The notes: generated from the letters alone by a model not told the origin. A stretch of DNA of 64,000 nucleotides from a virus (IMGVR_UViG_3300042275_000327:64001-128000); one strand, 5' to 3'; positions 163 through 59,903 are shown, counted from the stretch's first letter. Numbers and translations: made by a program.

Positions 163-1452
163 TCACATATAGATCTGACTTATGAAGTCATTAAGATATC
201 TTTCTGGTTCATATCCAATATATATCTCCTTGTTTAAAAAGAGAGTATCTAATAAAATAGTTCTTTCTTGGCATAAAACAGAAATTTCTGTTTCAGAAAT
301 ACTGATACTAAAAGGAATAATGGAAAACTCTGGAATTCCAAAAGACTCTATTGTTGTCTCTGTTCCTACTTTCTGAGTAAGAACTAACTCTTTAAAAGAC
401 TTCATCTTAAACTCTACATAGTTTCCTGTGGCATCCTCAGTATAGAACAGTGGTCTGAATTCTTCTTCATCAAAGTCAGTAACCACAGGAACATATCCTT
501 CTTGATACTCATAATCATCAGTCAGTGCCAATAAGAATCCATATTTATAATTGTCTGTAAACTCTGTATGTAACTCAAAATTAAGAACCCCAGGAGTAAG
601 ATATCTCTGTATATAGTATTCTTCTCTCTTATCAAATACATAAGGATGAAAATAATAAGAGTTATAGATAGAGGGAAATTGACAATCATCAGAAAAATCT
701 ATAGAGATCTCTGTTTCTTTAGATAGAGTGAACCTTACAGGAGTGGTTGGAGTGACAGAATATTCTAAGAATGAGAAAGAGCCAAAAGCACATTGTGCAA
801 CATAAGTCCCAGAATCTAGAGTGACAGAAAAGTCTGTTGGATTCAATGAATTATGAAGCATATTAGTATAAGATTCAGAAATATATTCATCTGATTCTTC
901 TTTTGATACTAGATAATTCAAATCAGAGTTCTCTTCTTTATAAGAATCATAAGCATCATGAATCACATACTCTTCTAGATATTTTATTATCTTATTTGTG
1001 AGTTTACCATGATATGGTGCAAGATATTGTTTCTTCCATACAAGTCCTATCTCAAACTTGCCAAAAGAATCTGTCACTTGAAACAAATAAGGGATCTTAT
1101 TATTTTTCTCATCTTCTAAAAAGAAGAATAGAAAATCATTTTTCTCTATATGGTCTTCTAATTTGGTATAAGCTTCTATTGGTAGAATCTCATAGAAGTA
1201 TGTTCTTGTCTCTGTTACTTCAGACTGAAATCCTAGTCTGTATCTTTCTAATGGCATCTCAGCTGGAAATCTGATGATAGCATCCAGAATAGAATCAGAA
1301 ATAGAATCTTCTATTCTTACATCTTGGTAGATGTCTTCAGTAAAGGAGATTCTTACTGCTTTCATTTCCTGTCCTAAGATAGAGACATTGAAGTCAAATA
1401 GTCTTCTTTTGGCTTTTAGAGAAGCTCTTGAAATGGATTCATATACACTCAT
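163..1452 (-). CDS. Putative virion protein (possible neck/head-completion protein)
   Basis: 429-aa ORF in the head module, preceded by AACTATT motif; no diagnostic motif recognised. Confidence 0.4.
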   Translation of the reverse strand: MSVYESISRASLKAKRRLFDFNVSILGQEMKAVRISFTEDIYQDVRIEDSISDSILDAIIRFPAEMPLERYRLGFQSEVTETRTYFYEILPIEAYTKLEDHIEKNDFLFFFLEDEKNNKIPYLFQVTDSFGKFEIGLVWKKQYLAPYHGKLTNKIIKYLEEYVIHDAYDSYKEENSDLNYLVSKEESDEYISESYTNMLHNSLNPTDFSVTLDSGTYVAQCAFGSFSFLEYSVTPTTPVRFTLSKETEISIDFSDDCQFPSIYNSYYFHPYVFDKREEYYIQRYLTPGVLNFELHTEFTDNYKYGFLLALTDDYEYQEGYVPVVTDFDEEEFRPLFYTEDATGNYVEFKMKSFKELVLTQKVGTETTIESFGIPEFSIIPFSISISETEISVLCQERTILLDTLFLNKEIYIGYEPERYLNDFISQIYM

Positions 1453-1544: not shown

Positions 1545-1778
1545 TCAGAACAGAGAAGACAATAGATATAAGTCCTCTTCTCCAAACCAAGATCCAAACC
1601 AATCATCCTCTTGAGGAGTTCTGAATCTCTCAACAAACTCTTCAGGATCTACAATATCTAAATCGGAAAATAGGAGGATTTCTTCAATTGGTCCTTTATA
1701 GGAAATGACTTCATTCTTCACTTCATAAAAACCAACATCAAATCCAGAAACTATTTTCATAGAATTACAACCATCCAT
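1545..1778 (-). CDS. Small acidic hypothetical protein
   Basis: 77-aa ORF overlapping the end of the protease gene; start uncertain. Confidence 0.5.
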   Translation of the reverse strand: MDGCNSMKIVSGFDVGFYEVKNEVISYKGPIEEILLFSDLDIVDPEEFVERFRTPQEDDWFGSWFGEEDLYLLSSLF

Positions 1779-3480
1779 CTTTTATTGGAAGTGATTTTGT
1801 AGTCTCAACTTCTCTTTTCTTTCTAGGACTAAATTTCCTATCATAAGCAGATTCCGAAATTTCATAAAGAGGCTTGAGTCTCAGATGAGTTCTTTGTGCT
1901 TCCATGAGAGTTCTACATTTCAGAATGTCATTCTTGATTACAATCACAGATGGATTGGAGTACTCAAGATTTTCATAATATCTTAGAACCTCTTTATTAG
2001 CACTTTCCTCTATACTTTCCTCTTCAGTTTCTTCTTCCTCTTCTTGGACATCTTCTTCTACTCTTGAAGTAAGATCTTCAGTTGCCTTTTCAGACAGTTT
2101 AGATTTAAGTTCGATCACCTCTCTTTCTAAAAGTTCTTTTTCATTTTCAACTTTCTCCAGATAAACCTGAGCTTCTCTATATTCAGAAGCAGTTACCATT
2201 CCATTCTTTTCAGCCTGAACAAGATCGTACATCTCTTTCAGCTTCTTAGAATAGACCTTGAGTGAATCTAAAAGTTCTAGTGAGTCATTGAGTTTTTCTT
2301 CAAGTCCCTCCTTTTCTCTCTTGATTGATTCAATTTCTTCTTTTATGGTTTCGAGTTCATTAGGTTTTGATTCTTTTAAAACTTCTTCTTTTGTAATCTC
2401 TTCTTCAATCTCTTTCTTGAGATCTTCTGCAAATCCTTCTTCAAAATAAGAAAGGAGTTCTTTATACTGATCGATTCTTTCTTCCTGGCTTTCAAGAGTC
2501 TTAGCTCTATTGAAAGAAGACACCATGTTCAATCTAAAAGACTTAGACAGGAAAGACTCTTTCTTCTTTTCATCTTTATCTTTCTTATCTTCTTTCTCTG
2601 AAGGATTATTTACTTTCTTTTTACAAGAAGGACAATATCCAGTATTGACTAAGACTTTTCCACCACAATCAGGACACTTGAAGGTATCTGTTCCTTCTTC
2701 CTTTTTGTCCTCATCATCTTCTTCTGGTTCATCTTTCTTATCATCCTCAGATTCTTCTTTCTTGTCTTCGGAGTCATCCTTTTCTTTTTCTTCAGGGTCT
2801 TCTTTCTTATCTTCTGGCTCTTCTTCACAAGCTTTCTTCTTTTCTTCTAAATCTTCTAGATCATTATCTATCTCTTCATTAATTTTCATAGTATCTTCCT
2901 TTATTTCAGACTCCTCTTGATTTATGATATCCTCTTGAGAACCATATACTTCATATGATGGATTAAATACAAAATCAGCAACTCTTTCAAGCTCATAAGA
3001 ATCAGGATTGATAGTCTTTTTGTCTTCAAGAAATTCTCCAAAACCAGAAGTAGAAAGACCTACCTTTCCCCCAGCTTCAAGAATTTCTTTTACCATTTCA
3101 CCATGATCACCAATAAGATAAGCATCTGCAATTACCATGTCTTTTGATTCATTGAATCTAAGATTTCTCCATACACACCAAATGTCTTTTGTTGATCCTT
3201 CTTCTTGAGGATGATCCATCAATCCAAAAGTTGAAGAATCCTTCAATCTAGATACAGAATTCTTCCAAAGCTTTTCATTATACACTCGACCATTGAGGTT
3301 TTCTTTTCCAGGTCTGGATATAGGAAAAGTGTAAATTGCTTTTGCTTTGTATTCTACTTTTGGTTCACCTTTTTTCTCAACAAATACAGTTTGATCTGAT
3401 TCGTTTAAAAAATTAGATTCTTTATATTCGTTAGGTCCAATAATAGCAGTTTCAACTAGTCTTATCTTCATGAGCTTCAA
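1765..3480 (-). CDS. Prohead protease (T4 gp21-like) fused to acidic coiled-coil scaffold region
   Basis: NLNGRVY, GLMDHP, GLSTSGFG, DFVFNPS motifs of gp21-type proteases; long E/K-rich C-terminus with CPDC..CPSC ribbon; next to portal. Confidence 0.85.
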   Translation of the reverse strand: MKLMKIRLVETAIIGPNEYKESNFLNESDQTVFVEKKGEPKVEYKAKAIYTFPISRPGKENLNGRVYNEKLWKNSVSRLKDSSTFGLMDHPQEEGSTKDIWCVWRNLRFNESKDMVIADAYLIGDHGEMVKEILEAGGKVGLSTSGFGEFLEDKKTINPDSYELERVADFVFNPSYEVYGSQEDIINQEESEIKEDTMKINEEIDNDLEDLEEKKKACEEEPEDKKEDPEEKEKDDSEDKKEESEDDKKDEPEEDDEDKKEEGTDTFKCPDCGGKVLVNTGYCPSCKKKVNNPSEKEDKKDKDEKKKESFLSKSFRLNMVSSFNRAKTLESQEERIDQYKELLSYFEEGFAEDLKKEIEEEITKEEVLKESKPNELETIKEEIESIKREKEGLEEKLNDSLELLDSLKVYSKKLKEMYDLVQAEKNGMVTASEYREAQVYLEKVENEKELLEREVIELKSKLSEKATEDLTSRVEEDVQEEEEETEEESIEESANKEVLRYYENLEYSNPSVIVIKNDILKCRTLMEAQRTHLRLKPLYEISESAYDRKFSPRKKREVETTKSLPIKDGWL

Positions 3481-3545
3481 ATACTCCTCATAAATATTCT
3501 TTTATAATATAATAGTTATCACAAATTCTAAAAAGTTTTTTATCA

Positions 3546-5297: not shown

Positions 5298-5504
5298 TTA
5301 GAAGAAGTGTTTCTTTTTAGATGGTGATTTGTTGAAATTAAGATTAGATTCTTGTCCCCACTGAAATGGAATATGAAAAGCTGTTGTCCATACTCTGAAA
5401 AAAGTCTTTCCATCCTCTTCAATCTTAGATGGAATATCTTCTTTGATAGAAAGTTCTAATTCTTTTTCTTCACCTGTTTCTTCACATTTATATCTATAGA
5501 TCAT
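5298..5504 (-). CDS. Small FmdB-like degenerate zinc-ribbon protein
   Basis: MIYRYKCEETG..E pattern; start revised to ATG at 5504. Confidence 0.45.
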   Translation of the reverse strand: MIYRYKCEETGEEKELELSIKEDIPSKIEEDGKTFFRVWTTAFHIPFQWGQESNLNFNKSPSKKKHFF

Positions 5505-5676
5505 AAAAATATTCCTCGTCATCATCTTCATACATGTCCATAACTTCCATTACTGCTCTAATTACTTGAGAATCAGAAGGAAGTCTCAGTATCTGTCCCT
5601 TTTTCATTATTACAGGAATATCAGGGATAAGAGTATCTTCTTCAAATGTAACTGAATTTAGATCTTTATTGTACAA
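5494..5676 (-). CDS. Small protein with a divergent copy of the LEKGD tag
   Basis: VTFEEDTLIPDIPVIMKKGQILRL; GAGGA RBS and AACTATT motif upstream. Confidence 0.5.
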   Translation of the reverse strand: MYNKDLNSVTFEEDTLIPDIPVIMKKGQILRLPSDSQVIRAVMEVMDMYEDDDEEYFYDL

Positions 5677-5700
5677 TTTAGTTTTCCTCTAATTAAATAG

Positions 5701-5988
5701 TTACAGAAGAGTCTTTAAATCTTTCTCCCAAATCCAAATGGTTCTATCTGATCCATTAGCAATCTCTTGAGCTATCTGAAGATATGTCATACTTCTGAAG
5801 GAGTGAGGATCTTGGAAGTTGTCTTTAGCTTTTAGTTTCTTCAAAATAGCTGCAAATTCTTCTACAGATCCATAGATAGACTTAAAACTTCCTTTTCCCC
5901 AATTAAGAGTCCATCCTCTAGATCCATTATAAAGAACCTCTACTTGAATTAGTTTTCTTGATTCTAAAAAATTTTCAATCTTTCTCAT
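5701..5988 (-). CDS. Hypothetical protein, possible internal head protein
   Basis: 95 aa with MRKIENFLE leader; overlaps upstream gene. Confidence 0.55.
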   Translation of the reverse strand: MRKIENFLESRKLIQVEVLYNGSRGWTLNWGKGSFKSIYGSVEEFAAILKKLKAKDNFQDPHSFRSMTYLQIAQEIANGSDRTIWIWEKDLKTLL

Positions 5989-8324: not shown

Positions 8325-8357
8325 AGTCCTCTTAATAAAATAGTTATCAAGAGGACT
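8325..8357 (-). promoter_or_regulatory. RBS-sequestering hairpin with late-promoter motif in the loop
   Basis: 9-bp perfect inverted repeat agtcctctt/aagaggact; one arm is the AAGAGGA RBS of 7702..8319; AACTATT at 8339-8345 in the loop. Confidence 0.7.
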
Positions 8358-12346: not shown

Positions 12347-12375
12347 AGCTATTCCTCTATAGTAAAATAGTTATC

Positions 12376-14220: not shown

Positions 14221-15642
14221 TTAGATGTTAGTAAGCTTGATTCTCTGGAGATAGTTAGGTTGAAGAACCTTAGCATCACCAAAGTAAGCAAGACCAGTTT
14301 CTTTATACATCTCTTTGAACTCAAGTGTCTGAGTCTGATAAAGTGGGATCAAACTGCCAAAACTCACGGATACGTCTTCCGGAACTAATTCGTTCTTATA
14401 GATAGCCATGATCTCATCATTAGGAACAATAGAAGCAGGAACCTTGTAAACATCGATTCCATCCAATGTACCTTCACGATAAGCACCAACTTTTGGCTGT
14501 CTGCTAGAAACATCAAACCGTCTGTGAAGCTTGATCTGAGTGATAGCTCCAGGTCCACCAACCAACTTAGTGACTCCGCCTCTCTGTAGAGAATTATAGA
14601 TCAAGTCAGAAGCTTGGTCAATAGCCTTGTTGAAAGCTGTCATACGATCAATCTCAGGCTCACCAACAGCACCCTGAACATTGAAAGTTACAGGAGCATG
14701 TCCCTTTGCACTCTGGTAAGCTAGACGAATAGCATGGAAGTCAAGAGACTTCTTGAACTCATCAGCAGCACCACGAATAAGAGCATCTTCTGCGTCAATA
14801 TTGAGAGTAGTGTTAACCAACACTTCAGTCATCTTAGACCAGCTGACATACAACGGCCAAGGTTTTACTCTGAACTGATAGTCTCTAAGTTGCAACTCAA
14901 CTGAACCAATATCAGTGTAGTTGTTAGAAACTTCAGAATCATAGTGGTATTCAAGAGAAATAAGTCCACCAGAAGCAGGAGCAGCTGTGAAAGTAACAGT
15001 GTATTCACCAGTGGTGTAGTTGATAGTGTTAGTCCCAGAGGAATTGAGAAGAGCACCAGAAAGATTTCCAGCACCATCATCAGTAGCAATAGGAACATCA
15101 TCAACTAACAGTCTTACAGTATAAGGTCTGATAGGAGCATTGAGCAAGGTGTTGTCAAAAGCAACAGTAGAACCATCACCAGTACCAACAGTGTCAACCT
15201 CAATTTCAGAACCATACCTAAAAGCAGGTGATTCATGCATAACACCACCAGCAGTAGCACCACGTTTTGAAGCCTGATAAACAGGAGACAAGTAGTAAAT
15301 ACTATCTCTTGCAGTTTCCATAGCCCATTCTAAGAACAAGTCACCACGTACACTATTAGGATATCCAAGACGAACAATTCTCATCACATTTTCAGGAGTA
15401 GTTGCAAAGCTGTTAGAGATCTGAGTCTCAGTCAACTTACCAAGGTGATTCTCCTGGTTCTCAAGAATAATAGAAAGAGCACGTGCTTTGTTGACGTCCT
15501 TTTCCATGATCTTATCCATGTTCTCGCCGATCCCAGTTTTCTTTGACCACTTCTCAAAGAGCCGATCAGCATTTTCATTTCTCTGAGAGAGCATTTCATC
15601 TCTTTGCTCTTTCAGGATTGCTTCACGCATTTCTTTACGCAT
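14221..15642 (-). CDS. Major capsid protein (T4 gp23-like, HK97 fold) with beta-rich insertion
   Basis: ILENQE, IVRLGYPN, IYYL, GTLDG.DVYK patterns; start revised to ATG 15642 after AGAAGGA; strong terminator downstream. Confidence 0.9.
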   Translation of the reverse strand: MRKEMREAILKEQRDEMLSQRNENADRLFEKWSKKTGIGENMDKIMEKDVNKARALSIILENQENHLGKLTETQISNSFATTPENVMRIVRLGYPNSVRGDLFLEWAMETARDSIYYLSPVYQASKRGATAGGVMHESPAFRYGSEIEVDTVGTGDGSTVAFDNTLLNAPIRPYTVRLLVDDVPIATDDGAGNLSGALLNSSGTNTINYTTGEYTVTFTAAPASGGLISLEYHYDSEVSNNYTDIGSVELQLRDYQFRVKPWPLYVSWSKMTEVLVNTTLNIDAEDALIRGAADEFKKSLDFHAIRLAYQSAKGHAPVTFNVQGAVGEPEIDRMTAFNKAIDQASDLIYNSLQRGGVTKLVGGPGAITQIKLHRRFDVSSRQPKVGAYREGTLDGIDVYKVPASIVPNDEIMAIYKNELVPEDVSVSFGSLIPLYQTQTLEFKEMYKETGLAYFGDAKVLQPNYLQRIKLTNI

Positions 15643-15828
15643 ATTAAAATTCCTTCTTTTTGTAAACAAGATTTTGAGGGAGGGAACTTTAGAGGTATAT
15701 CTCATAAAATCTGTTTTCATGAGAAGAACTTTCAATATTTCATCTTTCATTTATGAACAGAGAAATAAAAAATATCCCTTACATATATAATAGTAAGGGA
15801 CAATTTAAAAACCTGTTTTTCACAAATT

Positions 15829-16680
15829 CTATACTATTCCGAATCCTGTTTTCTTTTTTAGATATAGAAAAGCCTTCTCTATCAGAGACTTAATATAAAT
15901 TCTATAAGCAAGCTCTGTCAATTCAGAAAAATTCACTCTTCTATTTCTATTAAAAGCTTTTTCTAAAGCTTCATCAAAATATATCTTTGGATTGAACTTT
16001 GATTCAAAAAACCATTTTTCAATATCATTAATCTTGGACACAGAGAAATCTTCTTCATTGTATTCTTCTGGATCAAAAGACATCTCTATGTCAAGAAGAT
16101 CAGGATCGTCAGATACAAGAATGTAGTCCCCACGAAGAATTCTTTCTTCTATTATCTTATATGCATTATACTGACAATCAGTTAGAACATAATTAGGAAG
16201 ACCAGACTCTGGCTTATATGACATCAGAGCTTTCTTTACTGCTTTCAGGTAATCAGTTTCACTTCGAAAAGTTTTTTCTTCTTTGTAGATAGAGATCTTG
16301 TCTCCTTTCTCAATTATGAAAATACCTTCTTTCTGTCTTACTGGAAAATCATCAGAAACAACTAGACTATCTATGGCATCAGAAATAATCTCTTCTGTCT
16401 CTTTTGTTCCTTCTTTTGCAGAGGAATATTCTTCAGGATCTATATCAAAAAGTAATCTTTGAAATTCATGAACATGAACCTTTTCTTCTTGAGAAGTGTG
16501 ACTGAAAAGCTTTCCAATAACAGAAGAATCTTTACCTAACAAATTCGCTATTCTATTATAAAGATTGATAGCACTTTGCTCTGCTGAAATTCCTATTCTA
16601 AGAAAATCTTCAGCAGTAGCGTTATCTAGATCTAACTCAGTTATGGCTTGTAAAACAGACTCATAAAGATTCTTTTTCAT
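15829..16680 (-). CDS. Ferritin/rubrerythrin-like domain plus LEKGD tag plus C-terminal domain
   Basis: EQSAINLY...EEKVHVHE di-iron-type motif; RQKEGIFIIEKGDKISIYKE. Confidence 0.7.
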   Translation of the reverse strand: MKKNLYESVLQAITELDLDNATAEDFLRIGISAEQSAINLYNRIANLLGKDSSVIGKLFSHTSQEEKVHVHEFQRLLFDIDPEEYSSAKEGTKETEEIISDAIDSLVVSDDFPVRQKEGIFIIEKGDKISIYKEEKTFRSETDYLKAVKKALMSYKPESGLPNYVLTDCQYNAYKIIEERILRGDYILVSDDPDLLDIEMSFDPEEYNEEDFSVSKINDIEKWFFESKFNPKIYFDEALEKAFNRNRRVNFSELTELAYRIYIKSLIEKAFLYLKKKTGFGIV

Positions 16681-16777: not shown

Positions 16778-17347
16778 TTATAAATAGTGCTTTTTTATAG
16801 AATTTGAAAAGTTAAAAAATAACTTATAAAGATCTATAGGAGATAGATTATTATTTGGTCCATAAACATCTAATAAATATGAAAGAGATTTTTGAACTTG
16901 CAAAGAATCTATAAATCTATATTTGAACTCATCAAAAAATTTATCAAGATCTCTATCTTGAGGACCTTTCATCTGTCCTATATATTCTTTTAGATCTTTT
17001 TCTAAAACTTGAATCTTATCACCCTTCTCCAAAATGATTTTCTTTCCATCTTGTTCAATTACTACTTCTTCTTGAATTTCAATTATAGAATCATGTATAG
17101 AGAAGCTTTCTTCTTTAATTCCAAAATTTTTTTGAATAGAATCCCAGATATCTTTATGCTGCTTTTTCAACTTTGTATAGATAGGTCTATCACCTGTTTT
17201 TCCACTCTTTAAAGTAGAAGCCACCTTTTCAAAATCTTCAGGTGAGACAAAAGAGTAGCTACTCATCCAAGACCCTTCATCTTCTCCGTTATATTTAATT
17301 TTTTTAGAATCTCTAGCAGTATAGATTCCAGGTTTAAATTGATCCAT
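16778..17347 (-). CDS. LEKGD-tag protein
   Basis: IIEIQEEVVIEQDGKKIILEKGDKIQVLE between two unrelated short domains; AACTATT upstream. Confidence 0.7.
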   Translation of the reverse strand: MDQFKPGIYTARDSKKIKYNGEDEGSWMSSYSFVSPEDFEKVASTLKSGKTGDRPIYTKLKKQHKDIWDSIQKNFGIKEESFSIHDSIIEIQEEVVIEQDGKKIILEKGDKIQVLEKDLKEYIGQMKGPQDRDLDKFFDEFKYRFIDSLQVQKSLSYLLDVYGPNNNLSPIDLYKLFFNFSNSIKKHYL

Positions 17348-17385
17348 TATGATCTCCTTTTTAGATTACAGTATGAGTTATATAT

Positions 17386-17859
17386 TTAAATAGTTATAAT
17401 CTTCTCAATAACTTCTCGAACACATCCCTTTCCACTTTCCAAATTTGTTCTCTTGACTCTTTCAAAATCTTTATTTACATACAGATCAATAATAGAGTTT
17501 TTTGGACAATAAGAAATTCCAGCTTCGAGAAGACACTGAAGATCAGAAAAGTCATCCCCAATATAAGCTGCTTCAGACCAAGAGAGATTTTTAGACTTCA
17601 AAAACTCAGAGATAGTGATGAACTTATCCTCTGAGTTTAGGAAATGGTCAATCTTTAATTTTATTGCTCTTTCTAGATGAGTCTGACAATTTTTCTCTTT
17701 AGTAATCCATACAGTTAGAATTCCTTTTTCTTTTAGTCTTGAAAAACCTTCTCCATCTATCTTAGAATACTGGATCATTGAATCACCAGAAGTACTCATG
17801 TAGATGTTTCCATCTGTCAATGTTCCATCAATGTCACAAATAAGAACTTTTATTTTCAA
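17386..17859 (-). CDS. KdsC/YrbI-type HAD phosphatase (KDO-8-P/KDN-9-P/NeuAc-9-P phosphatase-like)
   Basis: DIDGTLTDG, YIGDDFSD, GKGCVRE. Confidence 0.85.
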   Translation of the reverse strand: MKIKVLICDIDGTLTDGNIYMSTSGDSMIQYSKIDGEGFSRLKEKGILTVWITKEKNCQTHLERAIKLKIDHFLNSEDKFITISEFLKSKNLSWSEAAYIGDDFSDLQCLLEAGISYCPKNSIIDLYVNKDFERVKRTNLESGKGCVREVIEKIITI

Positions 17860-21712: not shown

Positions 21713-21750
21713 AATTATTCTCCTATTAAAATATTACTAATAAAATAGTT

Positions 21751-53967: not shown

Positions 53968-54492
53968 ATGAATATATTTTATTTACATGAAAATCCAACT
54001 CTATCAGCTAAAGCAATGACGAATAAACATATTGTCAAGATGATTATTGAGGCAGCTCAATTGCTGTCTACAGCTCATAGAGTTCTTGATGGTTATCCAG
54101 TCAAAAAAGGAAGATGGACAACCTATCTTCTTGAAGACAAACAAAGAAATGATACTCTCTATAAGTCTACTCATTATAATCATCCATGTGCAGTCTGGGT
54201 AAGAGAGTCCTTTGAGAATTATTACTGGCTATACAAGCATTTTCTTGCTCTATGTCAGGAATATAGAAATCGATATGGAAAGATTCATGAATCAGAAAAC
54301 AAGTTAGGACACATACTTAGAAGATATCCTGAGTCTATGAAAAAGAAAAAGTTTACTCCTCCAGCTCTTGCTATGCCAGAAGAATACAAGGTTGAGGGAG
54401 ATCCTGTTCAGTCATATAGAAATTATTATGAAGCAGAGAAGCTTAAGAATCCAGAAGACATTCAAAGATATAAAGAGGTATTAGGATTATGA
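53968..54492 (+). CDS. Pyrimidine-dimer DNA glycosylase/DenV-related family protein
   Basis: MNIFYL, KHIVKM..E.AQLLS, H.NHPC..W, EY..RYGK.H, AMP..YK; start revised to 53968. Confidence 0.7.
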   Translation: MNIFYLHENPTLSAKAMTNKHIVKMIIEAAQLLSTAHRVLDGYPVKKGRWTTYLLEDKQRNDTLYKSTHYNHPCAVWVRESFENYYWLYKHFLALCQEYRNRYGKIHESENKLGHILRRYPESMKKKKFTPPALAMPEEYKVEGDPVQSYRNYYEAEKLKNPEDIQRYKEVLGL

Positions 54493-55475
54493 TCTATATT
54501 CTAGGAGATACACATATACGAAAAGAAGAGCCTTATTATTCTGCTGTGAATAATGTGTTTAAAGAGATCTATGAAGAGTGTAACGAAGGAGATACTATTA
54601 TTCAATTAGGAGATTTCTTTCACACATACAAGCCATTTCCAAAAGAATATTCTCTTGCCTTCTATTGGATAGAAAAGCTTTCTTCTAAAAATGTAAAATT
54701 GTATATAATGGCAGGAAATAATGCTCATGAATATCATCATCTTCAGAAAACATATGCTATTGATCCTTTAGATAGTTTTGACAATGTGATTCTTATCAAA
54801 GATATTGAGAAGCTTACTGTAGAGAATATCTCATTCTTAGTACTTCCTTGGATTCCTGAAAGTAGAGTGAAATCTTTGAAGCTTGAAGATGTTTGTGTGA
54901 TGTTAAAGAATTATATCAACAATCTTGAGTCTTCTGATATTGACTATTTTCTATATCATTATGAGGATGAGACTGTCTTTATGGGAGGAGAAAATAGAGG
55001 TATCGATTTTTCTTTTGTAGAGTCCATGATTCCTGGAATCAAGAGAATTGGAGGACATATCCATCTTCAAAGTGACAATTATCTAGGAACTCCTTTTCAG
55101 ACAAGATTCGATGAATTAGGACAAGTAGGAAGATATTATACTGTTGAAGATAATTATTTGAAATCTCACGAACTCAAAAACTATGTGAAACATCTTAAGA
55201 TAGACTTTGACTCTGATTGTCCAAAGCTAGAATTTAAAGAGCAGAAGATTGTTGTAAATATTTCTGATGCTCCATCAGTAGATTCTGTCTATGAAAAATT
55301 TAAGGACAGGCATATCTTCATCAATGATATAAAACTGAGGTTTTCAGAAAATAGAACTGAAACTCTTGCTGAAGGAATGGACTCAGAATCCTCCATAAAA
55401 GAGCTGTTGAATGAATATATAACAATCAACAATGTAGACAGAAAGACATCTTCTTATCTTTTAAACCTTTTTTAG
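54489..55475 (+). CDS. SbcD/Mre11/gp47-like nuclease
   Basis: GDTH, LGDFFH, GN..HE, GHIH, GTP. Confidence 0.85.
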   Translation: MIYILGDTHIRKEEPYYSAVNNVFKEIYEECNEGDTIIQLGDFFHTYKPFPKEYSLAFYWIEKLSSKNVKLYIMAGNNAHEYHHLQKTYAIDPLDSFDNVILIKDIEKLTVENISFLVLPWIPESRVKSLKLEDVCVMLKNYINNLESSDIDYFLYHYEDETVFMGGENRGIDFSFVESMIPGIKRIGGHIHLQSDNYLGTPFQTRFDELGQVGRYYTVEDNYLKSHELKNYVKHLKIDFDSDCPKLEFKEQKIVVNISDAPSVDSVYEKFKDRHIFINDIKLRFSENRTETLAEGMDSESSIKELLNEYITINNVDRKTSSYLLNLF

Positions 55476-55517
55476 ATGTCAGGAACTATTTAATTATAGA
55501 ATGGAGAATAAAATTAT

Positions 55518-55934
55518 ATGCCATCACCTTATGTAAAATCACTTTCGAAGGAAACAGGAAAGCCAGAATCTGAAATTGAGAAACTTTGGTCTAAAGCAAA
55601 AGATATCACTTCTGACACTTTCAATAAGAAAGAAAAAGATTTTGAAGATAAAGAATATTCTTATACAGTTGGAATAGTGAAAAATATGCTTGGTATCAAA
55701 GAGGAACTTTTAGATCCTTCAAAATTTCTAAATTCTGATCTTTCAGCTAGAGAATTTATAGAGACTGTTACAAGTTCATCATTTCCTTCTTTAGACAAGA
55801 ATCTTATTCCTCCTGAAGAAGATGAAGAAGAACCAGAGGAAGAACTAAAAATCACAAAAGAGAAAAAGATAGAAGTTGAATCCATTTCAGATGATGAATG
55901 GGGAACAGCTCTAGACAAAATTTTAGGAGTATAG
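55518..55934 (+). CDS. Probable virion/prohead protein
   Basis: MP...KS..KETGK...E.EKLW.KAK pattern seen in phage virion proteins; AACTATT at 55484-55490. Confidence 0.5.
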   Translation: MPSPYVKSLSKETGKPESEIEKLWSKAKDITSDTFNKKEKDFEDKEYSYTVGIVKNMLGIKEELLDPSKFLNSDLSAREFIETVTSSSFPSLDKNLIPPEEDEEEPEEELKITKEKKIEVESISDDEWGTALDKILGV

Positions 55935-55940
55935 ATTAAT

Positions 55941-56573
55941 ATGAGAATTATAGAAGATTTTATTGATGATGAGTCTGATCTTTTGGTAAATAATTACGAA
56001 GATGAGTATCTTGAAGAGCCTAGTTATTCCATGGAAGATGAATACTTTGAAGAGCCTGCGGGACTAGAATATCCTATGGAAGACGAAGATGAATTTGAAC
56101 TTGAAAATTCAATGATCATCCCACAAGACGATTATGATGTTGTTCTTGAAAAAGGAGACAGAATCAAGATAGTTTCTAAAGATTTAAAAGAAGCTGTTGA
56201 TCTTAGTGAAGTTGACTTCAACGATTTTGTAAGTCAAAAATTTCACTATGAACCCTTGATTAGATATTTTAATGATCTGAATATTCCTGTTAAAGATATT
56301 GTATTTGATGAGGATTTAAGAAATAACACGATAACTGCTTCAGCTGGAAAATGGATCAGACGTGACTTAGGAATATTTTCTTATGTTCTAAACTCAGTTG
56401 AGTTAAAAACATTTGGCTCTAGAATTATAGAAAATAAGTATGGACACCCTGTTTGGGTAACAACTTGGGCTATGGAGTATGAGACTAGAGATAAAGGAGA
56501 AAATGGTATTTCATTTACAACTTCTTGGTGTGATCTTCTAGACTATACTTGGCAATTTCAAGGCAAAGGATAA
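55941..56573 (+). CDS. LEKGD-tag protein
   Basis: MRIIE leader, acidic region, IPQDDYDVVLEKGDRIKI, LKE, unique C-terminal domain. Confidence 0.7.
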   Translation: MRIIEDFIDDESDLLVNNYEDEYLEEPSYSMEDEYFEEPAGLEYPMEDEDEFELENSMIIPQDDYDVVLEKGDRIKIVSKDLKEAVDLSEVDFNDFVSQKFHYEPLIRYFNDLNIPVKDIVFDEDLRNNTITASAGKWIRRDLGIFSYVLNSVELKTFGSRIIENKYGHPVWVTTWAMEYETRDKGENGISFTTSWCDLLDYTWQFQGKG

Positions 56574-56575
56574 TT

Positions 56576-56911
56576 ATGAGAATTATACATTTAGAAAAAG
56601 ATGAAAAAACTAGAGTAACCTTCAAAAATTTAAAAGAAGCAATAATAACCAAAAGTGGTTGGGTCTATGATCCTAGAAATCAAGCAATGAGTGGATATCC
56701 TACTATTGAAAAAGAAGTAGAAAATGTTCTTATTACAATTTCTTATGGTGCAGATGATATTGATCTTCCATTTGAAGTGAATATAGAGGATGAATTTAAT
56801 CAAGAAATTAAAAAGTTTGCTTCAATAGAAGGAGTAAAGAGATATATTTATAAATATTACAGACTAGTTCTTAGTAATAAAGATTTCTTTACTCTTATTG
56901 GTGATAAATAG
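56576..56911 (+). CDS. Array protein with truncated tag
   Basis: MRIIHLEKDEKTRVTFKNLKE; start revised to 56576. Confidence 0.6.
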   Translation: MRIIHLEKDEKTRVTFKNLKEAIITKSGWVYDPRNQAMSGYPTIEKEVENVLITISYGADDIDLPFEVNIEDEFNQEIKKFASIEGVKRYIYKYYRLVLSNKDFFTLIGDK

Positions 56912-56936
56912 AAATGTCAAAACAAGGAAAGATGGT

Positions 56937-57362
56937 ATGAGAATTATAAATCTAGATGAGGAAGAAGAAAAGAAAAAAGAGATTGTTGAGATACAGGAAG
57001 AAGTTCGAATTCTTCAAGATGATCAAGAAATCATTCTTGAGAAAGGTGATAAAATACAAATTCTAAAAGAAAATAATTTTGATTTAGAAAATTTGATAGA
57101 TCAAACAATTTCTAGTATGGAAGGTTATTATGTTGGTTCTCCACGAGGAGAAACAACAGAATTTATTCTTGATAAACCTTTTATTCAAATTAAGAGGGAT
57201 ACATATGAATTTTGTGGATTAGATAAAATAAGTCATAGAAACATAGCTTTTCCTATAACAAAAAAGTCTATAGAAATTAAATCTGTAGATCATGGATTTT
57301 ATAAAATAAAAGGAAATCATCCTCGTGGTAATTTTATATTTATCCAATTAAAATTAAGATAA
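56937..57362 (+). CDS. LEKGD-tag protein
   Basis: IVEIQEEVRILQDDQEIILEKGDKIQILKE; start revised to 56937. Confidence 0.7.
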   Translation: MRIINLDEEEEKKKEIVEIQEEVRILQDDQEIILEKGDKIQILKENNFDLENLIDQTISSMEGYYVGSPRGETTEFILDKPFIQIKRDTYEFCGLDKISHRNIAFPITKKSIEIKSVDHGFYKIKGNHPRGNFIFIQLKLR

Positions 57363-57399
57363 GACAGTAGACATCCTATAAAATGAAAGAGAGCAAGAA

Positions 57400-57813
57400 A
57401 TGAGAATAGAAGAAAACATAGTCAAATTGGAAGACGATATTGTTATTAGACAGGATGATAGAAAGATCATCCTAGAAAAGGGTGATAGAATAAAAATTCT
57501 ATTAGAGAATATAGATACTGATTTATCTTCAATAAATTTTCTTTATTCAAAAGGATATAAAAAAACAAGTTCAGCTCTTCCAAATAATTATACACTTTTA
57601 CCAACAAGAAAAAAGTGTTCCTTCAAAGAATTACTTAAAACTCTTTCAAGAGACAACTTTTCTATGACTAAGAGCTATGTTGATATCCTTGAGAATAAAG
57701 TTTTTGTCTTTAGAGGATCTAGAGAACTATCAGATTCTTATATTAGTATAACAACCCTTGATGGGATACTCATAGATTCTGTCAGCATTTCACATCAAAA
57801 AATTGGAGATTAA
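57400..57813 (+). CDS. LEKGD-tag protein
   Basis: IVKLEDDIVIRQDDRKIILEKGDRIKILLE. Confidence 0.7.
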   Translation: MRIEENIVKLEDDIVIRQDDRKIILEKGDRIKILLENIDTDLSSINFLYSKGYKKTSSALPNNYTLLPTRKKCSFKELLKTLSRDNFSMTKSYVDILENKVFVFRGSRELSDSYISITTLDGILIDSVSISHQKIGD

Positions 57814-57853
57814 AGAAAAGCTATATTGGAGCTGATTCATAGAGGAAAATAAT

Positions 57854-58717
57854 ATGAGAATAGAAGAAAAGAAAAAAGTCAGAGTTGGAAAAGTTAAGAA
57901 AGATAAGTCTGGAGAAGACTGGATTGTTCCTGTCTATGTAGATGGAAAATTTAATGATGATATGACTTATTATGCAGGTAATGGTAAAGAAGCTAAAAAA
58001 GACGCTGAAGGTACTAGAGACCAGATGATAAAAGATATGAAGAACTCTAAAGAGTATGAACTAGAAGAAGATTTTGAACTTGAAACAGAAGAGACTATTA
58101 TTGATTTGAAAGATGATATTGTTATCAGACAAGATGATAGAAAGATTATCTTAGAAAAAGGTGATAAGATCATGGTTATCAAAGAACGATTCGAGCCAAA
58201 CGATATTCTTACGCTGAGTTCTGGATTCTTGGCAAGATATGCTGGAAGCAACAAGTACAATGACATCGAGAGATTTCAGAACAAGCTCTTTATTTGGGTT
58301 CGTGATGAAGTTGCTGAGGGTAGAAGATTCAATTCTCATGTTGATGCTATTGAGGCATTCATTGCTGAGAGGGATGAATATCGAAGAACTCACAATACCT
58401 ATGAAATTGAAGTTTTCGAATCAGTGAAGATTTCTCAAGAAGATCATGACATCATCTTGGAGAAGGGAGATAAGATCAGAATTCTTGAGGATGAGAAATT
58501 CAACTACATGATGCTTGATAGACTCAGACAGGATTGTGTTTATGCAATTAATCAATCTAAAAGTACTAGACAACTTTGGGGAAAGACTGTTGATGCACAT
58601 ATAGCAGAAATGAGAAGACTGTATAGCTTAGTAAAAGAAAAACCAGAGTGGCTGTCTCTTGAAGATATTGATATGTACGAGAAAGAGCTGAAGAAGTTAG
58701 AAAAGTCTGGCAAGTAA
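57854..58717 (+). CDS. Double-tag polyvalent protein with C-terminal LPD11-like domain
   Basis: Two tags; C-terminus FNYMMLDRLRQDC...LW......I.EM..LY....EKPEWLS.EDI..YE. Confidence 0.7.
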   Translation: MRIEEKKKVRVGKVKKDKSGEDWIVPVYVDGKFNDDMTYYAGNGKEAKKDAEGTRDQMIKDMKNSKEYELEEDFELETEETIIDLKDDIVIRQDDRKIILEKGDKIMVIKERFEPNDILTLSSGFLARYAGSNKYNDIERFQNKLFIWVRDEVAEGRRFNSHVDAIEAFIAERDEYRRTHNTYEIEVFESVKISQEDHDIILEKGDKIRILEDEKFNYMMLDRLRQDCVYAINQSKSTRQLWGKTVDAHIAEMRRLYSLVKEKPEWLSLEDIDMYEKELKKLEKSGK

Positions 58718-58745
58718 AATATATTTTAGAACGAGGCAAGAAAAA

Positions 58746-59414
58746 ATGAAAGAAAATGTAATTGAAATTCAGGAAGAAATCAGAATCCCTCAGGGTGATC
58801 AGGAACTCGTTCTAGAAAAAGGTGACAGGCTCAGAGTTTTGGAGAGAGATGTTTCTACTTATAAAGCTCCTAAAGGTAAATCTTGGGATGCTGTTGTAAA
58901 GGAACTTGAAAGACAAGGTGCTGAGTCTGGAAAAGACTATGATCTTATAGGATCTGAAAACTTTTGGGTTAGCTATAAGTTTGATAGTCCTGAGTTACAG
59001 AATATTTTAAAGAAAACTTCAAAAAAGGAAGTAAAAATGAAAAAAATTATTGAAATCAAAGAAGACATTAGTCTTAAACAAGACGACAAGAAGATTATAC
59101 TCGAAAAAGGCGATAAAATTCAGATTTTGAAAGAGGATGAAACTCTGACATGGAAAGAATTTAAGAATAGAAAACTTCTTCACAATTCTTTGTCAGAATT
59201 TGTTCTTGAAGTTTTTTATCAAAAAATTAAATTTAATGGCGTTAACGCTAAAGCTGAGCTTGTTGCAGGAATATTGAGGATCGTTCCAGCAAGAGGAAAC
59301 ATTCTTCTTATAACTCCGGAGAATTCTGATATTGTAACTATCTATGAAGAATTCAACTATGGGTTTAAAATTCAGTTAGATGCTTTAGGCGCTGTTTTTT
59401 ATGGATATTACTAA
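58746..59414 (+). CDS. Double-tag protein (apparent in-frame fusion of two units)
   Basis: Two tags; internal AAGGA plus in-frame ATG at 59037. Confidence 0.7.
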   Translation: MKENVIEIQEEIRIPQGDQELVLEKGDRLRVLERDVSTYKAPKGKSWDAVVKELERQGAESGKDYDLIGSENFWVSYKFDSPELQNILKKTSKKEVKMKKIIEIKEDISLKQDDKKIILEKGDKIQILKEDETLTWKEFKNRKLLHNSLSEFVLEVFYQKIKFNGVNAKAELVAGILRIVPARGNILLITPENSDIVTIYEEFNYGFKIQLDALGAVFYGYY

Positions 59415-59444
59415 GATTAAATTCTGCTAAAAAGGAAAAGAAAA

Positions 59445-59732
59445 ATGAAAGAAAATGTGATTAACATACAAGAAGACGTTATTATTAAGCAAAAAGACAA
59501 GAAGATTATCCTTGAAAAAGGAGATAGAATCAAGGTTTTGAAAGAAGCTAGGGCTCCTAAGATGAAAGTAAATCCTGCAAAAGATTCATTAGAGAAAGAT
59601 ATTTCTAGTATTTCAAATACATTGTCTAACATGATTGATACTGCAGGCAATAATTACCAAACAGCAAGCTTTGCTAAAATTTTGAAGTCAATAAAGAAAA
59701 AAGTTGATGATCTTATTGTTCCATATTTTTGA
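59445..59732 (+). CDS. LEKGD-tag protein
   Basis: VINIQEDVIIKQKDKKIILEKGDRIKVLKE. Confidence 0.7.
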   Translation: MKENVINIQEDVIIKQKDKKIILEKGDRIKVLKEARAPKMKVNPAKDSLEKDISSISNTLSNMIDTAGNNYQTASFAKILKSIKKKVDDLIVPYF

Positions 59733-59819: not shown

Positions 59820-59850
59820 CAGGAGTCATTAAGGTGACTCCTGCTTTTTT
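59820..59850 (+). terminator. Intrinsic terminator closing the tag-protein array
   Basis: caggagtca/tgactcctg stem followed by a T run. Confidence 0.85.
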
Positions 59851-59903
59851 ATGGAAAATAATATGAAATTTTTAGTACACTCTTTATATAAGAGGAATTA
59901 GGA

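What the first reader, a model, noticed from the sequence alone, without database searches (positions are those of the whole stretch)
55941..59732. Tandem array of proteins built from a shared ~30-aa tag plus interchangeable cargo: candidate modular capsid-loading effector system
Seen: the motif [IV].[IL].E[DE]..I.Q[DG]D..[IV][IV]LEKGD[KR]I.[IV]L.E occurs 8 times in 6 ORFs of this array (about 56100, 56982, 57418, 58098, 58405, 58758, 59046, 59457) and twice more in the two genes just upstream of the major capsid gene (about 16280-16350, 17000-17090); divergent copies lie in 5494..5676 and 56576..56911. Each tag ends in or near L/I-x-E and is followed by an unrelated ~60-130-aa domain. The array follows the AACTATT motif that marks virion genes and ends at a terminator. 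Established: T4 gp21 protease cleaves after (I/L)-x-E, and T4 internal proteins (IPI is an anti-restriction factor) are packaged through a short capsid-targeting sequence. Inference: the tag is a reusable prohead-docking module, the protease frees each cargo, and a variable effector set is injected with the DNA. I do not recognise the tag as a named domain.
Basis: partly seen in the sequence, partly recalled or inferred. Interest (0 to 1): 0.9.

Follow-up and report, generated by a model that had tools for sequence, protein, structure and literature searches.

The report
Portable half-SH3 tag on phage late proteins
An uncultured 148-kb phage and its relatives attach the same small folded 32-34-residue module to more than a hundred unrelated small proteins whose genes sit among the head and tail genes. 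The module is most likely an address domain that brings changeable cargo to the assembling phage head, but neither loading nor cutting has been tested.

Summary
The repeat is real. A profile of the tag finds 8 copies in 6 genes of the 55941-59732 array, 2 in the genes upstream of the capsid gene and 1 outside the window (E 1e-6 to 1e-16). The two "divergent copies" fail. Invariant residues use different codons, so selection acts on the protein.

The tag folds confidently on its own and resembles the first half of an SH3 barrel. No Pfam, PHROG, NCBIfam or PDB entry covers it.

Across 1.84 billion protein representatives, 218 clusters carry it. All are 44-352 aa, soluble and metagenomic. The flanking domains fall into about 127 unrelated groups and are swapped at the tag.

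Evidence for a head association:
- The array lies between a 13-nt promoter-like motif, otherwise seen before sheath, tube, protease and capsid operons, and a terminator.
- In eight related contigs, tag genes sit between the protease/scaffold and capsid genes.
- Cargos include an encapsulin-type ferritin domain, and a zinc ribbon that this phage carries inside its protease/scaffold protein.

So the modular-tag idea and its head linkage are supported. The T4 gp21 analogy is not: no S77 protease was found, and a third of tags are not N-terminal. Packaging, cleavage and injection are untested.

The parts
55484..55496 (+). Promoter-like motif AACTATTTAATTA ahead of the array operon. It is the only copy in the + strand block of the window.
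   Evidence: 9 copies in the window against 0.40 expected. The others precede the sheath, tube, tail, protease/scaffold and capsid operons.
55518..55934 (+). First gene of the operon: a 138-aa acidic protein without a tag. Its homologues lie in the structural region of relatives.
55941..56573 (+). Array gene 1 (210 aa): acidic N-terminus, tag at 56085-56186, and a 128-aa cargo whose family has 7 representatives.
56576..56911 (+). Array gene 2 (111 aa): no intact tag. The cargo is homologous to that of tagged proteins P0012 and P0044, with a degenerate remnant of the tag at its N-terminus.
   Evidence: E 1e-11; no profile match.
56937..57362 (+). Array gene 3 (141 aa): tag at 56976-57077 plus a 94-aa cargo.
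57400..57813 (+). Array gene 4 (137 aa): N-terminal tag at 57412-57513 plus a 100-aa alpha/beta cargo. This protein was modelled.
   Evidence: The cargo is 54% identical to the C-terminus of P0046.
57854..58717 (+). Array gene 5 (287 aa): N-domain, tag (58091-58192), middle domain, tag (58397-58498), then an LPD11 domain (about 58496-58687).
   Evidence: PF18824, 2.8e-21; residues 109-215 are about 90% identical to P0010, P0012 and P0015, which carry other cargos.
58746..59414 (+). Array gene 6 (222 aa): two tag-plus-cargo units, with tags at 58752-58853 and 59040-59141.
   Evidence: the two halves match the separate proteins P0045 (75%) and P0107 (74%).
59445..59732 (+). Array gene 7 (95 aa): tag at 59451-59552 plus a 59-aa basic cargo.
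59820..59853 (+). Terminator-like hairpin (10-bp stem) followed by a T run, closing the operon.
16778..17347 (-). Tagged protein (189 aa, tag at 16991-17092). It is the first gene after the promoter-like motif at 17383-17395 and lies two genes upstream of the capsid gene.
15829..16680 (-). Tagged protein (283 aa) directly upstream of the capsid gene: an EncB/EncFtn-like ferritin domain (about 16378-16608), tag at 16273-16374, then a C-terminal domain.
   Evidence: (Rubrerythrin, 2.2e-6; EncB_fam, 2.7e-10).
14221..15750 (-). Major capsid protein gene, in the same operon as the two tagged genes above.
   Evidence: (phrog_138, phrog_1014).
1765..3480 (-). Prohead protease fused to an acidic linker, a zinc ribbon (about 2557-2700) and a coiled-coil scaffold region. 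The zinc ribbon also occurs fused to the tag in other phages.
   Evidence: (phrog_207, 1.9e-11), (P0091: 62% identity over 48 aa, E 4.5e-17).

Best explanation
The tag is an autonomous beta-module of about 32-34 residues (consensus ..IIEIQEEVxIxQDDKKIILEKGDKIxVLKE) whose predicted fold matches the first half of an SH3-like barrel. It most likely acts as a shared docking (address) domain. Made late, together with the structural proteins, it would bind a phage-encoded partner in the assembling head: the protease/scaffold core or the inner face of the capsid. Binding might work by completing a beta-sheet with that partner. This would recruit a changeable set of small soluble proteins into the prohead. 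Cargo genes are exchanged between related phages by recombination at the tag. Shown here: the module, its fold prediction, its spread and cargo diversity, cargo swapping, the late-type promoter and terminator, and the position next to head genes. Inferred: binding to the head, residence inside the capsid, any release by the prohead protease at the (V/I)-L-x-E end of the tag, and delivery into the host with the DNA. I put about 0.5 on recruitment to the head, about 0.3 on delivery into the host, and about 0.2 on cutting at L-x-E.
For: (1) The module is real and under protein-level selection.

(2) It folds on its own. pLDDT is 89-97 within ORF4 and averages 86.6 when modelled alone. SH3 domains dominate the structural neighbours and align only to their N-terminal ~31-38 residues. 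Pfam SH3_1 and ESM Atlas give weak signals in the same direction.

(3) 218 representative clusters carry it. All are 44-352 aa and none has a membrane segment. Their 180 non-tag segments fall into 127 groups.

(4) Cargo is swapped at the tag. An N-part plus tag that is about 90% identical is joined to four different cargos, and two-unit proteins correspond to separate genes in other phages.

(5) Expression looks late. The motif AACTATTWHAHTW occurs 13 times in the genome, before the tube, sheath, tail, protease/scaffold and capsid operons and before a gene with a weak terminase-large-subunit match. One copy precedes this array, which ends at a terminator.

(6) Synteny. The order protease/scaffold, then tag genes, then capsid gene, on one strand, recurs in L012, L046, L055, L051, L054, L057, L042 and L036. 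Other tag genes follow the sheath gene. Homologues of the two genes that flank this array lie in the structural region of relatives.

(7) Every informative contig belongs to this one phage lineage. No cultured phage has the tag, and among 185,579 species genomes only three short MAG contigs carry it. This fits a phage-encoded partner.

(8) Cargo identity. The ferritin-like domain of P0001, P0104 and P0118 matches the encapsulin cargo family EncB_fam best (2.7e-10, 3.6e-7, 7e-11). P0104 is only that domain plus a C-terminal tag, which mirrors encapsulin cargo with its targeting peptide (PMC11202242).

(9) A zinc ribbon built into this phage's protease/scaffold protein occurs in four other representative proteins fused directly to the tag. 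The same passenger is therefore carried either covalently in the head core or on the tag.

(10) One cargo is LPD11, a domain of polyvalent proteins that are predicted to travel with the DNA (PMC5512222).
Against: There is no direct evidence of virion association. No relative is cultured and no proteome exists. No fusion of the tag to portal, MuF, capsid or protease domains was found, and no tagged protein of 332 aa or more exists (weak evidence, as the tool itself notes). The slot between scaffold and capsid genes is also where decoration-protein genes sit in lambda-like and SPP1-like phages (my own knowledge), so synteny does not tell inside from outside. In this phage, and in L058 and L060, the main array lies next to an SbcD-like gene rather than the capsid gene. 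The tag is acidic (mean charge -3.4) and the binding partner is unknown. The EncB_fam hits are below the curated cut-off (40 bits against 90). The SH3 resemblance rests on non-significant scores (Foldseek E of 1.4 or more, VIA Z about 2). Only a few cargos have any recognisable function.
Confidence: 0.5

Rival explanations
1. Outer-capsid decoration anchor. The tag binds a site on the outside of the mature capsid, as the anchoring parts of lambda gpD, T4 Hoc or T5 pb10 do, and displays varying small domains on the virion surface.
For: Tag genes occupy the slot between scaffold and capsid genes, where decoration genes commonly lie (the gene orders of lambda and SPP1 are from my own knowledge). 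Expression looks late. A half-barrel beta-module could anchor by strand addition. Two-tag proteins could bridge two capsid sites.
Against: The recognisable cargos are intracellular types: EncFtn-like and full ferritin domains, a zeta-toxin/P-loop kinase, LPD11, and a zinc ribbon shared with the scaffold protein. No Ig-like, lectin or collagen-like domain was detected. Eleven different proteins would compete for one site.
Confidence: 0.15
2. Not a virion component. The tag is a generic self-association or partner-binding domain of small late intracellular proteins, such as anti-defence or host-takeover factors. It might form intertwined dimers, and it ties them to each other or to a non-structural phage or host factor.
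For: Half-SH3 modules resemble the halves of domain-swapped SH3 dimers among the top structural hits. Arrays also lie next to an SbcD-like gene and a NAD-ligase gene in this phage, L050, L058 and L060. Cargos are small orphan proteins that turn over fast, like many anti-defence genes. No fusion to structural domains was found.
Against: The promoter motif is otherwise tied to structural operons. The placement between protease/scaffold and capsid genes recurs in eight contigs. A zinc ribbon is shared with the scaffold protein. The ferritin cargo is of the encapsulin type. The tag is restricted to one head-gene lineage.
Confidence: 0.2
3. The conserved stretch is mainly a recombination or gene-start cassette that lets genes shuffle, with no function of its own in the protein.
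For: Cargo swapping occurs exactly at the tag, and many genes also share an MRIE/MKIE start.
Against: Copies are only 49-75% identical in DNA. Invariant residues use different synonymous codons. The peptide is predicted to fold with pLDDT up to 97. Tags also occur inside and at the end of proteins.
Confidence: 0.03

Closest known systems
Capsid targeting sequence (CTS) of phage T4 internal proteins IPI-III and Alt (Mullaney and Black 1996, as described in PMC3012670 and PMC5694885)
   Same: One conserved targeting element is joined to a highly diverse, fast-changing set of small proteins. The genes are expressed with the head genes. The tag usually ends in hydrophobic-L-x-E, which resembles a gp21-type site.
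   Different: The T4 CTS is a 10-20-residue N-terminal leader removed by gp21. Here the element is a folded 32-34-residue beta-module that can be N-terminal, internal or C-terminal. No gp21 (S77) homologue was found. Packaging and cleavage are unproven.
[quoted passage not shown]
   Same: The shell has the HK97 fold and the cargo gene lies directly upstream of it. The ferritin-like domain is closest to EncB_fam. In P0104 the ferritin-like domain is followed only by the tag, as EncFtn is followed by its targeting peptide.
   Different: The encapsulin peptide (for example LTVGSL or SLGIGSLK) is short, unstructured and unrelated in sequence. This shell belongs to a tailed phage with portal, protease, sheath and DNA packaging. 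The family scores are below the curated cut-offs.
Phage polyvalent proteins and solo LPD domains near virion genes (Iyer et al. 2017, PMC5512222)
   Same: An LPD11 domain is one of the cargos. Unrelated modules are combined and encoded among late genes. Both are predicted to act at or just after entry.
   Different: Polyvalent proteins are very large single polypeptides, often fused to MuF or portal domains and with processing peptidases. Here the units are separate genes of 44-352 aa, each with its own tag, and no long form was found.
SH3 and SH3-like small beta-barrels
   Same: The predicted strand order and the L-x-x-G-D-x-I-x-V-L signature match the first half of SH3 domains (ALYDY through the hhxxGDxIxVL strand). 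SH3 domains are the main structural neighbours.
   Different: Only about 31-38 of 57-62 SH3 residues are covered, and the second half of the barrel is missing. All scores are below significance. SH3 function (proline-peptide binding) cannot be inferred.

Membership tests
T4-type CTS / internal protein system | Short (10-20 aa), strictly N-terminal targeting leader | tested here: not met
   The element is a module of 32-34 aa predicted to fold. It is N-terminal in 102, internal in 37 and C-terminal in 12 of 151 proteins.
T4-type CTS / internal protein system | Prohead protease of the gp21 family (Peptidase_S77) that cuts after (L/I)-x-E | tested here: not met
   PF03420 has no match in the 147.6-kb genome at E<=1, and neither does PF04586. 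The protease is recognised only by phrog_207, E 1.9e-11. Its specificity is unknown.
T4-type CTS / internal protein system | One conserved targeting element on many unrelated, polymorphic small proteins | tested here: met
   218 clusters carry the tag and 180 non-tag segments fall into 127 groups. Cargo is swapped at about 90% identity of the tag-bearing part.
T4-type CTS / internal protein system | Proteins are packaged in the head, processed, and injected with the DNA | not testable with these tools
   No cultured relative or proteome exists. Only context supports it.
SH3 domain (Pfam SH3_1 / SH3-like barrel) | Match to the family model above its gathering score | tested here: not met
   The best SH3_1 score is 20.1 bits against 22.9, and it covers model positions 9-28 of 48 only.
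SH3 domain (Pfam SH3_1 / SH3-like barrel) | Complete five-stranded barrel of about 55-60 residues | tested here: inconclusive
   The model has 4-5 short strands in 33 residues. SH3 chains are the top hits but align over about 31-38 residues, with Foldseek E of 1.4 or more and VIA Z 2.0-2.2.
Encapsulin cargo (EncFtn/EncB with targeting peptide) | Ferritin-like domain of the encapsulated type | tested here: inconclusive
   EncB_fam is the best NCBIfam hit for P0001, P0104 and P0118 (2.7e-10, 3.6e-7, 7e-11), but at 30-42 bits against a cut-off of 90.
Encapsulin cargo (EncFtn/EncB with targeting peptide) | C-terminal targeting peptide of the LTVGSL / SLGIGSLK type, and a shell gene without phage genes around it | tested here: not met
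   No such peptide is present in P0001 or P0104. The shell gene lies in a phage with portal, protease, sheath and tube genes.
Phage polyvalent proteins | Very large multi-domain polypeptide, often fused to MuF or portal | tested here: not met
   The longest tagged representative is 352 aa. The search among proteins of 332-2000 aa found none.
Phage polyvalent proteins | Carries LPD or effector domains of that repertoire | tested here: met
   LPD11 (PF18824) scores 2.8e-21 in ORF 57854-58717. Among 150 representatives it occurs in one only.

The most novel reading that the evidence does not exclude
The tag is a previously undescribed, folded capsid-loading domain. It would dock by beta-strand complementation onto the scaffold/protease core or the capsid lumen of one phage lineage. 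It would load an exchangeable arsenal of more than 100 small effector families, including an encapsulin-type ferritin, and these would then be released and delivered with the DNA. That would make it a phage counterpart of encapsulin cargo loading and a domain-sized analogue of the T4 CTS.
Probability: 0.3. Interest if true: 0.85.

Novelty: new variant of a known kind. Interest (0 to 1): 0.6.

Why it matters
If the tag does load proteins into the head, it defines a new, easily recognised marker for virion-delivered phage proteins in metagenomes. It would also give a list of more than 100 orphan cargo families, which are candidate anti-defence or takeover factors. It would link phage internal proteins to encapsulin cargo loading through a shared ferritin-type cargo. 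And it would offer a compact folded tag for packing foreign proteins into HK97-fold shells. If the tag turns out to be a decoration anchor or a self-association domain, it is still an undescribed portable domain with unusually rapid cargo exchange.

Tried and rejected
- DNA and protein searches of 50,697 cultured-phage records with the array and with ORF 58746-59414 found nothing, so no virion proteome can be consulted.
- The tag profile matched no PDB sequence at E<=10.
- The tag has no Pfam, PHROG or NCBIfam family.
- BFVD gave no match at E<=0.001.
- The search for long or fused forms of 332-2000 aa found none.
- The protease/scaffold protein has no PDB or cultured-phage match and no S77 or S78 match, so its cleavage specificity could not be inferred.
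- The fold of the ORF4 cargo is a generic alpha/beta sandwich (best Z 5.9) and gives no function.
- The 'divergent copies' at 5494-5676 and 56576-56911 are rejected as tags.
- A DNA-repeat or recombination-cassette origin is rejected on codon usage.
- Membrane or secreted cargo is rejected: 0 of 151 proteins have a hydrophobic segment.
- A degenerate DNA pattern scan of viral contigs gave mostly chance hits and added only one further tag-bearing contig, L017.


Full report
WHAT IS THERE. The window is bases 64001-128000 of a 147,626-bp IMG/VR virus record, estimated 86% complete. The capsid protein has only distant relatives among cultured phages (27% identity at best), and the array has none.

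On the + strand, 55518-59732 holds eight closely spaced genes. Six of them carry eight copies of a module with the core (I/V)(I/V)LEKGD(K/R)I. Two more copies lie in the two genes upstream of the capsid gene, at 16991-17092 and 16273-16374 on the - strand. An eleventh lies outside the window, in a 74-aa protein made of the tag plus a poly-acidic tail, encoded between the sheath gene and a tube-like gene.

A profile of the ten window copies scores all eleven at E 2e-17 to 4e-7 in the genome. ORF 56576-56911 is nevertheless a cargo homologue that retains a decayed end of the tag.

The copies are 49-75% identical in DNA. Invariant Leu, Glu, Lys, Gly and Asp are encoded by several synonymous codons. 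The conservation is therefore at the protein level.

THE MODULE. Conservation runs over about 30 positions, (I/V)-I-E-I-Q-E-E-V-x-I-x-Q-D-D-x-x-I-I-L-E-K-G-D-K-I-x-V-L-K-E, and falls off sharply after the last Glu.

AlphaFold2 predicts four to five short strands. pLDDT is 89-97 inside ORF 57400-57813 and averages 86.6 for the 39-residue piece alone, so the module should fold independently of its cargo.

Foldseek's best PDB hits are SH3 domains (Lck, Src, Nck, Abl, Eps8), several of them intertwined dimers. They align over about 31-38 of 57-62 residues. The exhaustive VIA search returned only seven chains with Z of 2 or more, and six are SH3 domains aligned through their N-terminal ~35 residues. 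Pfam SH3_1 gives sub-threshold hits to model positions 9-29, and the ESM Atlas structure neighbours include SH3 and SH3b proteins.

None of these scores is significant alone. Together they suggest the first half of an SH3-like barrel. No Pfam, PHROG or NCBIfam model and no PDB sequence covers the tag.

SPREAD AND MODULARITY. Against 1.84 billion representative proteins, the profile finds 218 clusters at E<=1e-3. All are 44-352 aa. In the 151 proteins examined the tag is N-terminal in 102, internal in 37 and C-terminal in 12. No protein of 332 aa or more carries it, and none has a membrane segment.

The 180 non-tag segments fall into 127 BLAST groups, and the same domain can sit before or after the tag. 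Only a few cargos are recognisable: rubrerythrin/ferritin-like (4), LPD11 (1) and a zeta-toxin/P-loop kinase (1).

Swapping is recent. Residues 109-215 of ORF 57854-58717 (a domain plus tag) are 88-93% identical to P0010, P0012 and P0015, which continue with three other cargos, while this phage continues with LPD11. LPD11 in turn exists as a stand-alone tag-plus-LPD11 protein, P0073. The two halves of ORF 58746-59414 match the separate proteins P0045 and P0107. The cargo of ORF 57400-57813 is joined in P0046 to the N-domain of the protein encoded at 16778-17347.

EXPRESSION CONTEXT. Bare AACTATT is not enriched. The extended motif AACTATTWHAHTW occurs 9 times in the window against 0.40 expected and 13 times in the genome. 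Most copies are intergenic, 12-51 nt before a start codon.

The genes that follow include the tail tube, the tail sheath, a tail protein, the protease/scaffold gene, the operon of two tag genes plus the capsid gene, and a gene with a weak terminase-large-subunit match. The only copy in the + strand replication and nucleotide-metabolism block is at 55484, just before gene 55518 and the array. A terminator-like hairpin follows at 59820-59843. The array is therefore one transcription unit of the virion-gene type.

SYNTENY IN RELATIVES. Six IMG/VR contigs, about 23 metagenome contigs and three MAG contigs carry tags. Every contig with informative flanks has homologues of this phage's genes.

In L012, L046, L055, L051, L054, L057, L042 and L036, one to four tag genes lie on the same strand directly after the protease/scaffold gene and/or directly before the capsid gene. 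Other tag genes follow the sheath gene (L001, L059) or lie between head-associated genes and the tail operon (L010, L013, L017, L053).

Homologues of genes 55518 and 59904, which flank the array here, lie close together in the structural region of L017 and of the complete 147-kb genome G003. The array here thus looks like an expansion at a displaced piece of the late module. Some relatives have arrays next to the SbcD-like gene (L058 with about ten tag genes, and L060). In G002 and G003 that SbcD-like gene itself sits beside the portal gene.

TWO CARGO CLUES. First, the N-terminal domain of the protein encoded directly upstream of the capsid gene, and of P0104 and P0118, matches the encapsulin ferritin-like cargo family EncB_fam best (E 2.7e-10, 3.6e-7, 7e-11). 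These scores are below the curated cut-off. P0104 consists only of that domain, an acidic linker and a C-terminal tag. This is the architecture of EncFtn with its targeting peptide inside HK97-fold encapsulin shells (PMC11202242). A full ferritin domain is tagged in L012.

Second, the protease/scaffold protein of this phage contains a zinc ribbon (KCPxCGGK...TGYCxxCKKKV) between its protease domain and its coiled coil. The G002 homologue lacks it there. The same ribbon occurs next to the tag in P0091 (62% identity, E 4.5e-17), P0081, P0049 and P0137, and in L045 and L053. One passenger module is thus either built into the head-core protein or carried on the tag. That pattern is expected if the tag replaces covalent linkage to the core.

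MECHANISM AND ITS LIMITS. The most economical reading is a docking domain that recruits small late proteins to the assembling head. [quoted passage not shown]

- No S77 or S78 protease model matches the genome.
- The candidate protease has no characterised relative.
- A third of the tags are not N-terminal.

The (V/I)-L-x-E ending is frequent, in 123 of 156 tags. The capsid protein has a (I/V/F)-L-K-E near its start in three of four relatives, with LTE-TQIS conserved further on. Glu-rich amphipathic strands produce such triplets easily, so this is only a hint.

Inside and outside the capsid cannot be told apart by gene position. The intracellular nature of the recognisable cargos favours inside. 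A non-virion role remains possible.

COMPARISON AND NOVELTY. The principle of one address with many cargos is known from T4 and from encapsulins. This address is different: it is a folded, position-independent, half-SH3-like module, restricted to one uncultured phage lineage, with unusually visible cargo exchange.

Other notes describe different tags in other phages. I treat those as leads only. The tests reported here were run independently.

Noticed in passing
window 15829-16680 (-), about 16378-16608: The protein encoded directly upstream of the HK97-type capsid gene has a two-helix ferritin-like domain. Its best NCBIfam match is the encapsulin cargo family EncB_fam (E 2.7e-10, below cut-off), followed by the tag. 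A relative (P0104) is only that domain plus a C-terminal tag.
   Followed up: partly
window 2557-2700 (-), inside gene 1765-3480: A zinc ribbon (KCPDCGGK...GYCPSCKKKV) with an acidic stretch is inserted between the protease domain and the scaffold coiled coil. It is absent from the G002 and G003 homologues, and it is found fused to the tag in P0091, P0081, P0049, P0137, L045 and L053.
   Followed up: partly
window 250-262, 1452-1464, 3505-3517, 5690-5702, 8333-8345, 12360-12372, 17383-17395, 21738-21750 (-) and 55484-55496 (+): A 13-nt promoter-like motif AACTATTWHAHTW occurs 9 times against 0.40 expected, mostly 12-51 nt upstream of virion-gene operons. It is probably this phage's late promoter.
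   Followed up: yes
window genes starting at 5988, 7546 and 10055 (-) and the array genes: A short N-terminal leader M-(R/K)-I-(E/I) occurs in 9 of 199 predicted genes of the genome. Six are in the tag family (five tagged genes plus tagless array gene 56576-56911) and three are other genes of the head region. It also occurs in about a quarter of tagged representatives, including those that start with the zinc ribbon. Its meaning is unknown.
   Followed up: partly
window 14221-15750 (-), N-terminal ~110 residues: The capsid proteins of G000, G003 and L046 share MRK.M.E..(I/V/F)LKEQ at the start, and the motif (K/R/S)LTE-TQIS about 70 residues in (NLTE in G002). These are possible maturation cleavage sites that resemble the end of the tag.
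   Followed up: partly
L006:6451-6675 (-) = G000:C1:50451-50675: A 74-aa protein made of the tag plus a tail rich in Asp and Glu is encoded between the tail sheath gene and a tube-like gene.
   Followed up: partly
L058 (7.8 kb), L059, L060: Contigs of this phage lineage are binned in a Spirochaetia MAG and a Woesearchaeota MAG. One of them carries about ten tag genes in a row. These are probably mis-binned phage DNA, so they give no reliable host.
   Followed up: no
window 54489-55475 (+): The SbcD/Mre11-like metallophosphoesterase gene that precedes the array lies directly beside the portal gene in relatives G002 and G003. It may therefore belong to the late module rather than to replication.
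   Followed up: no
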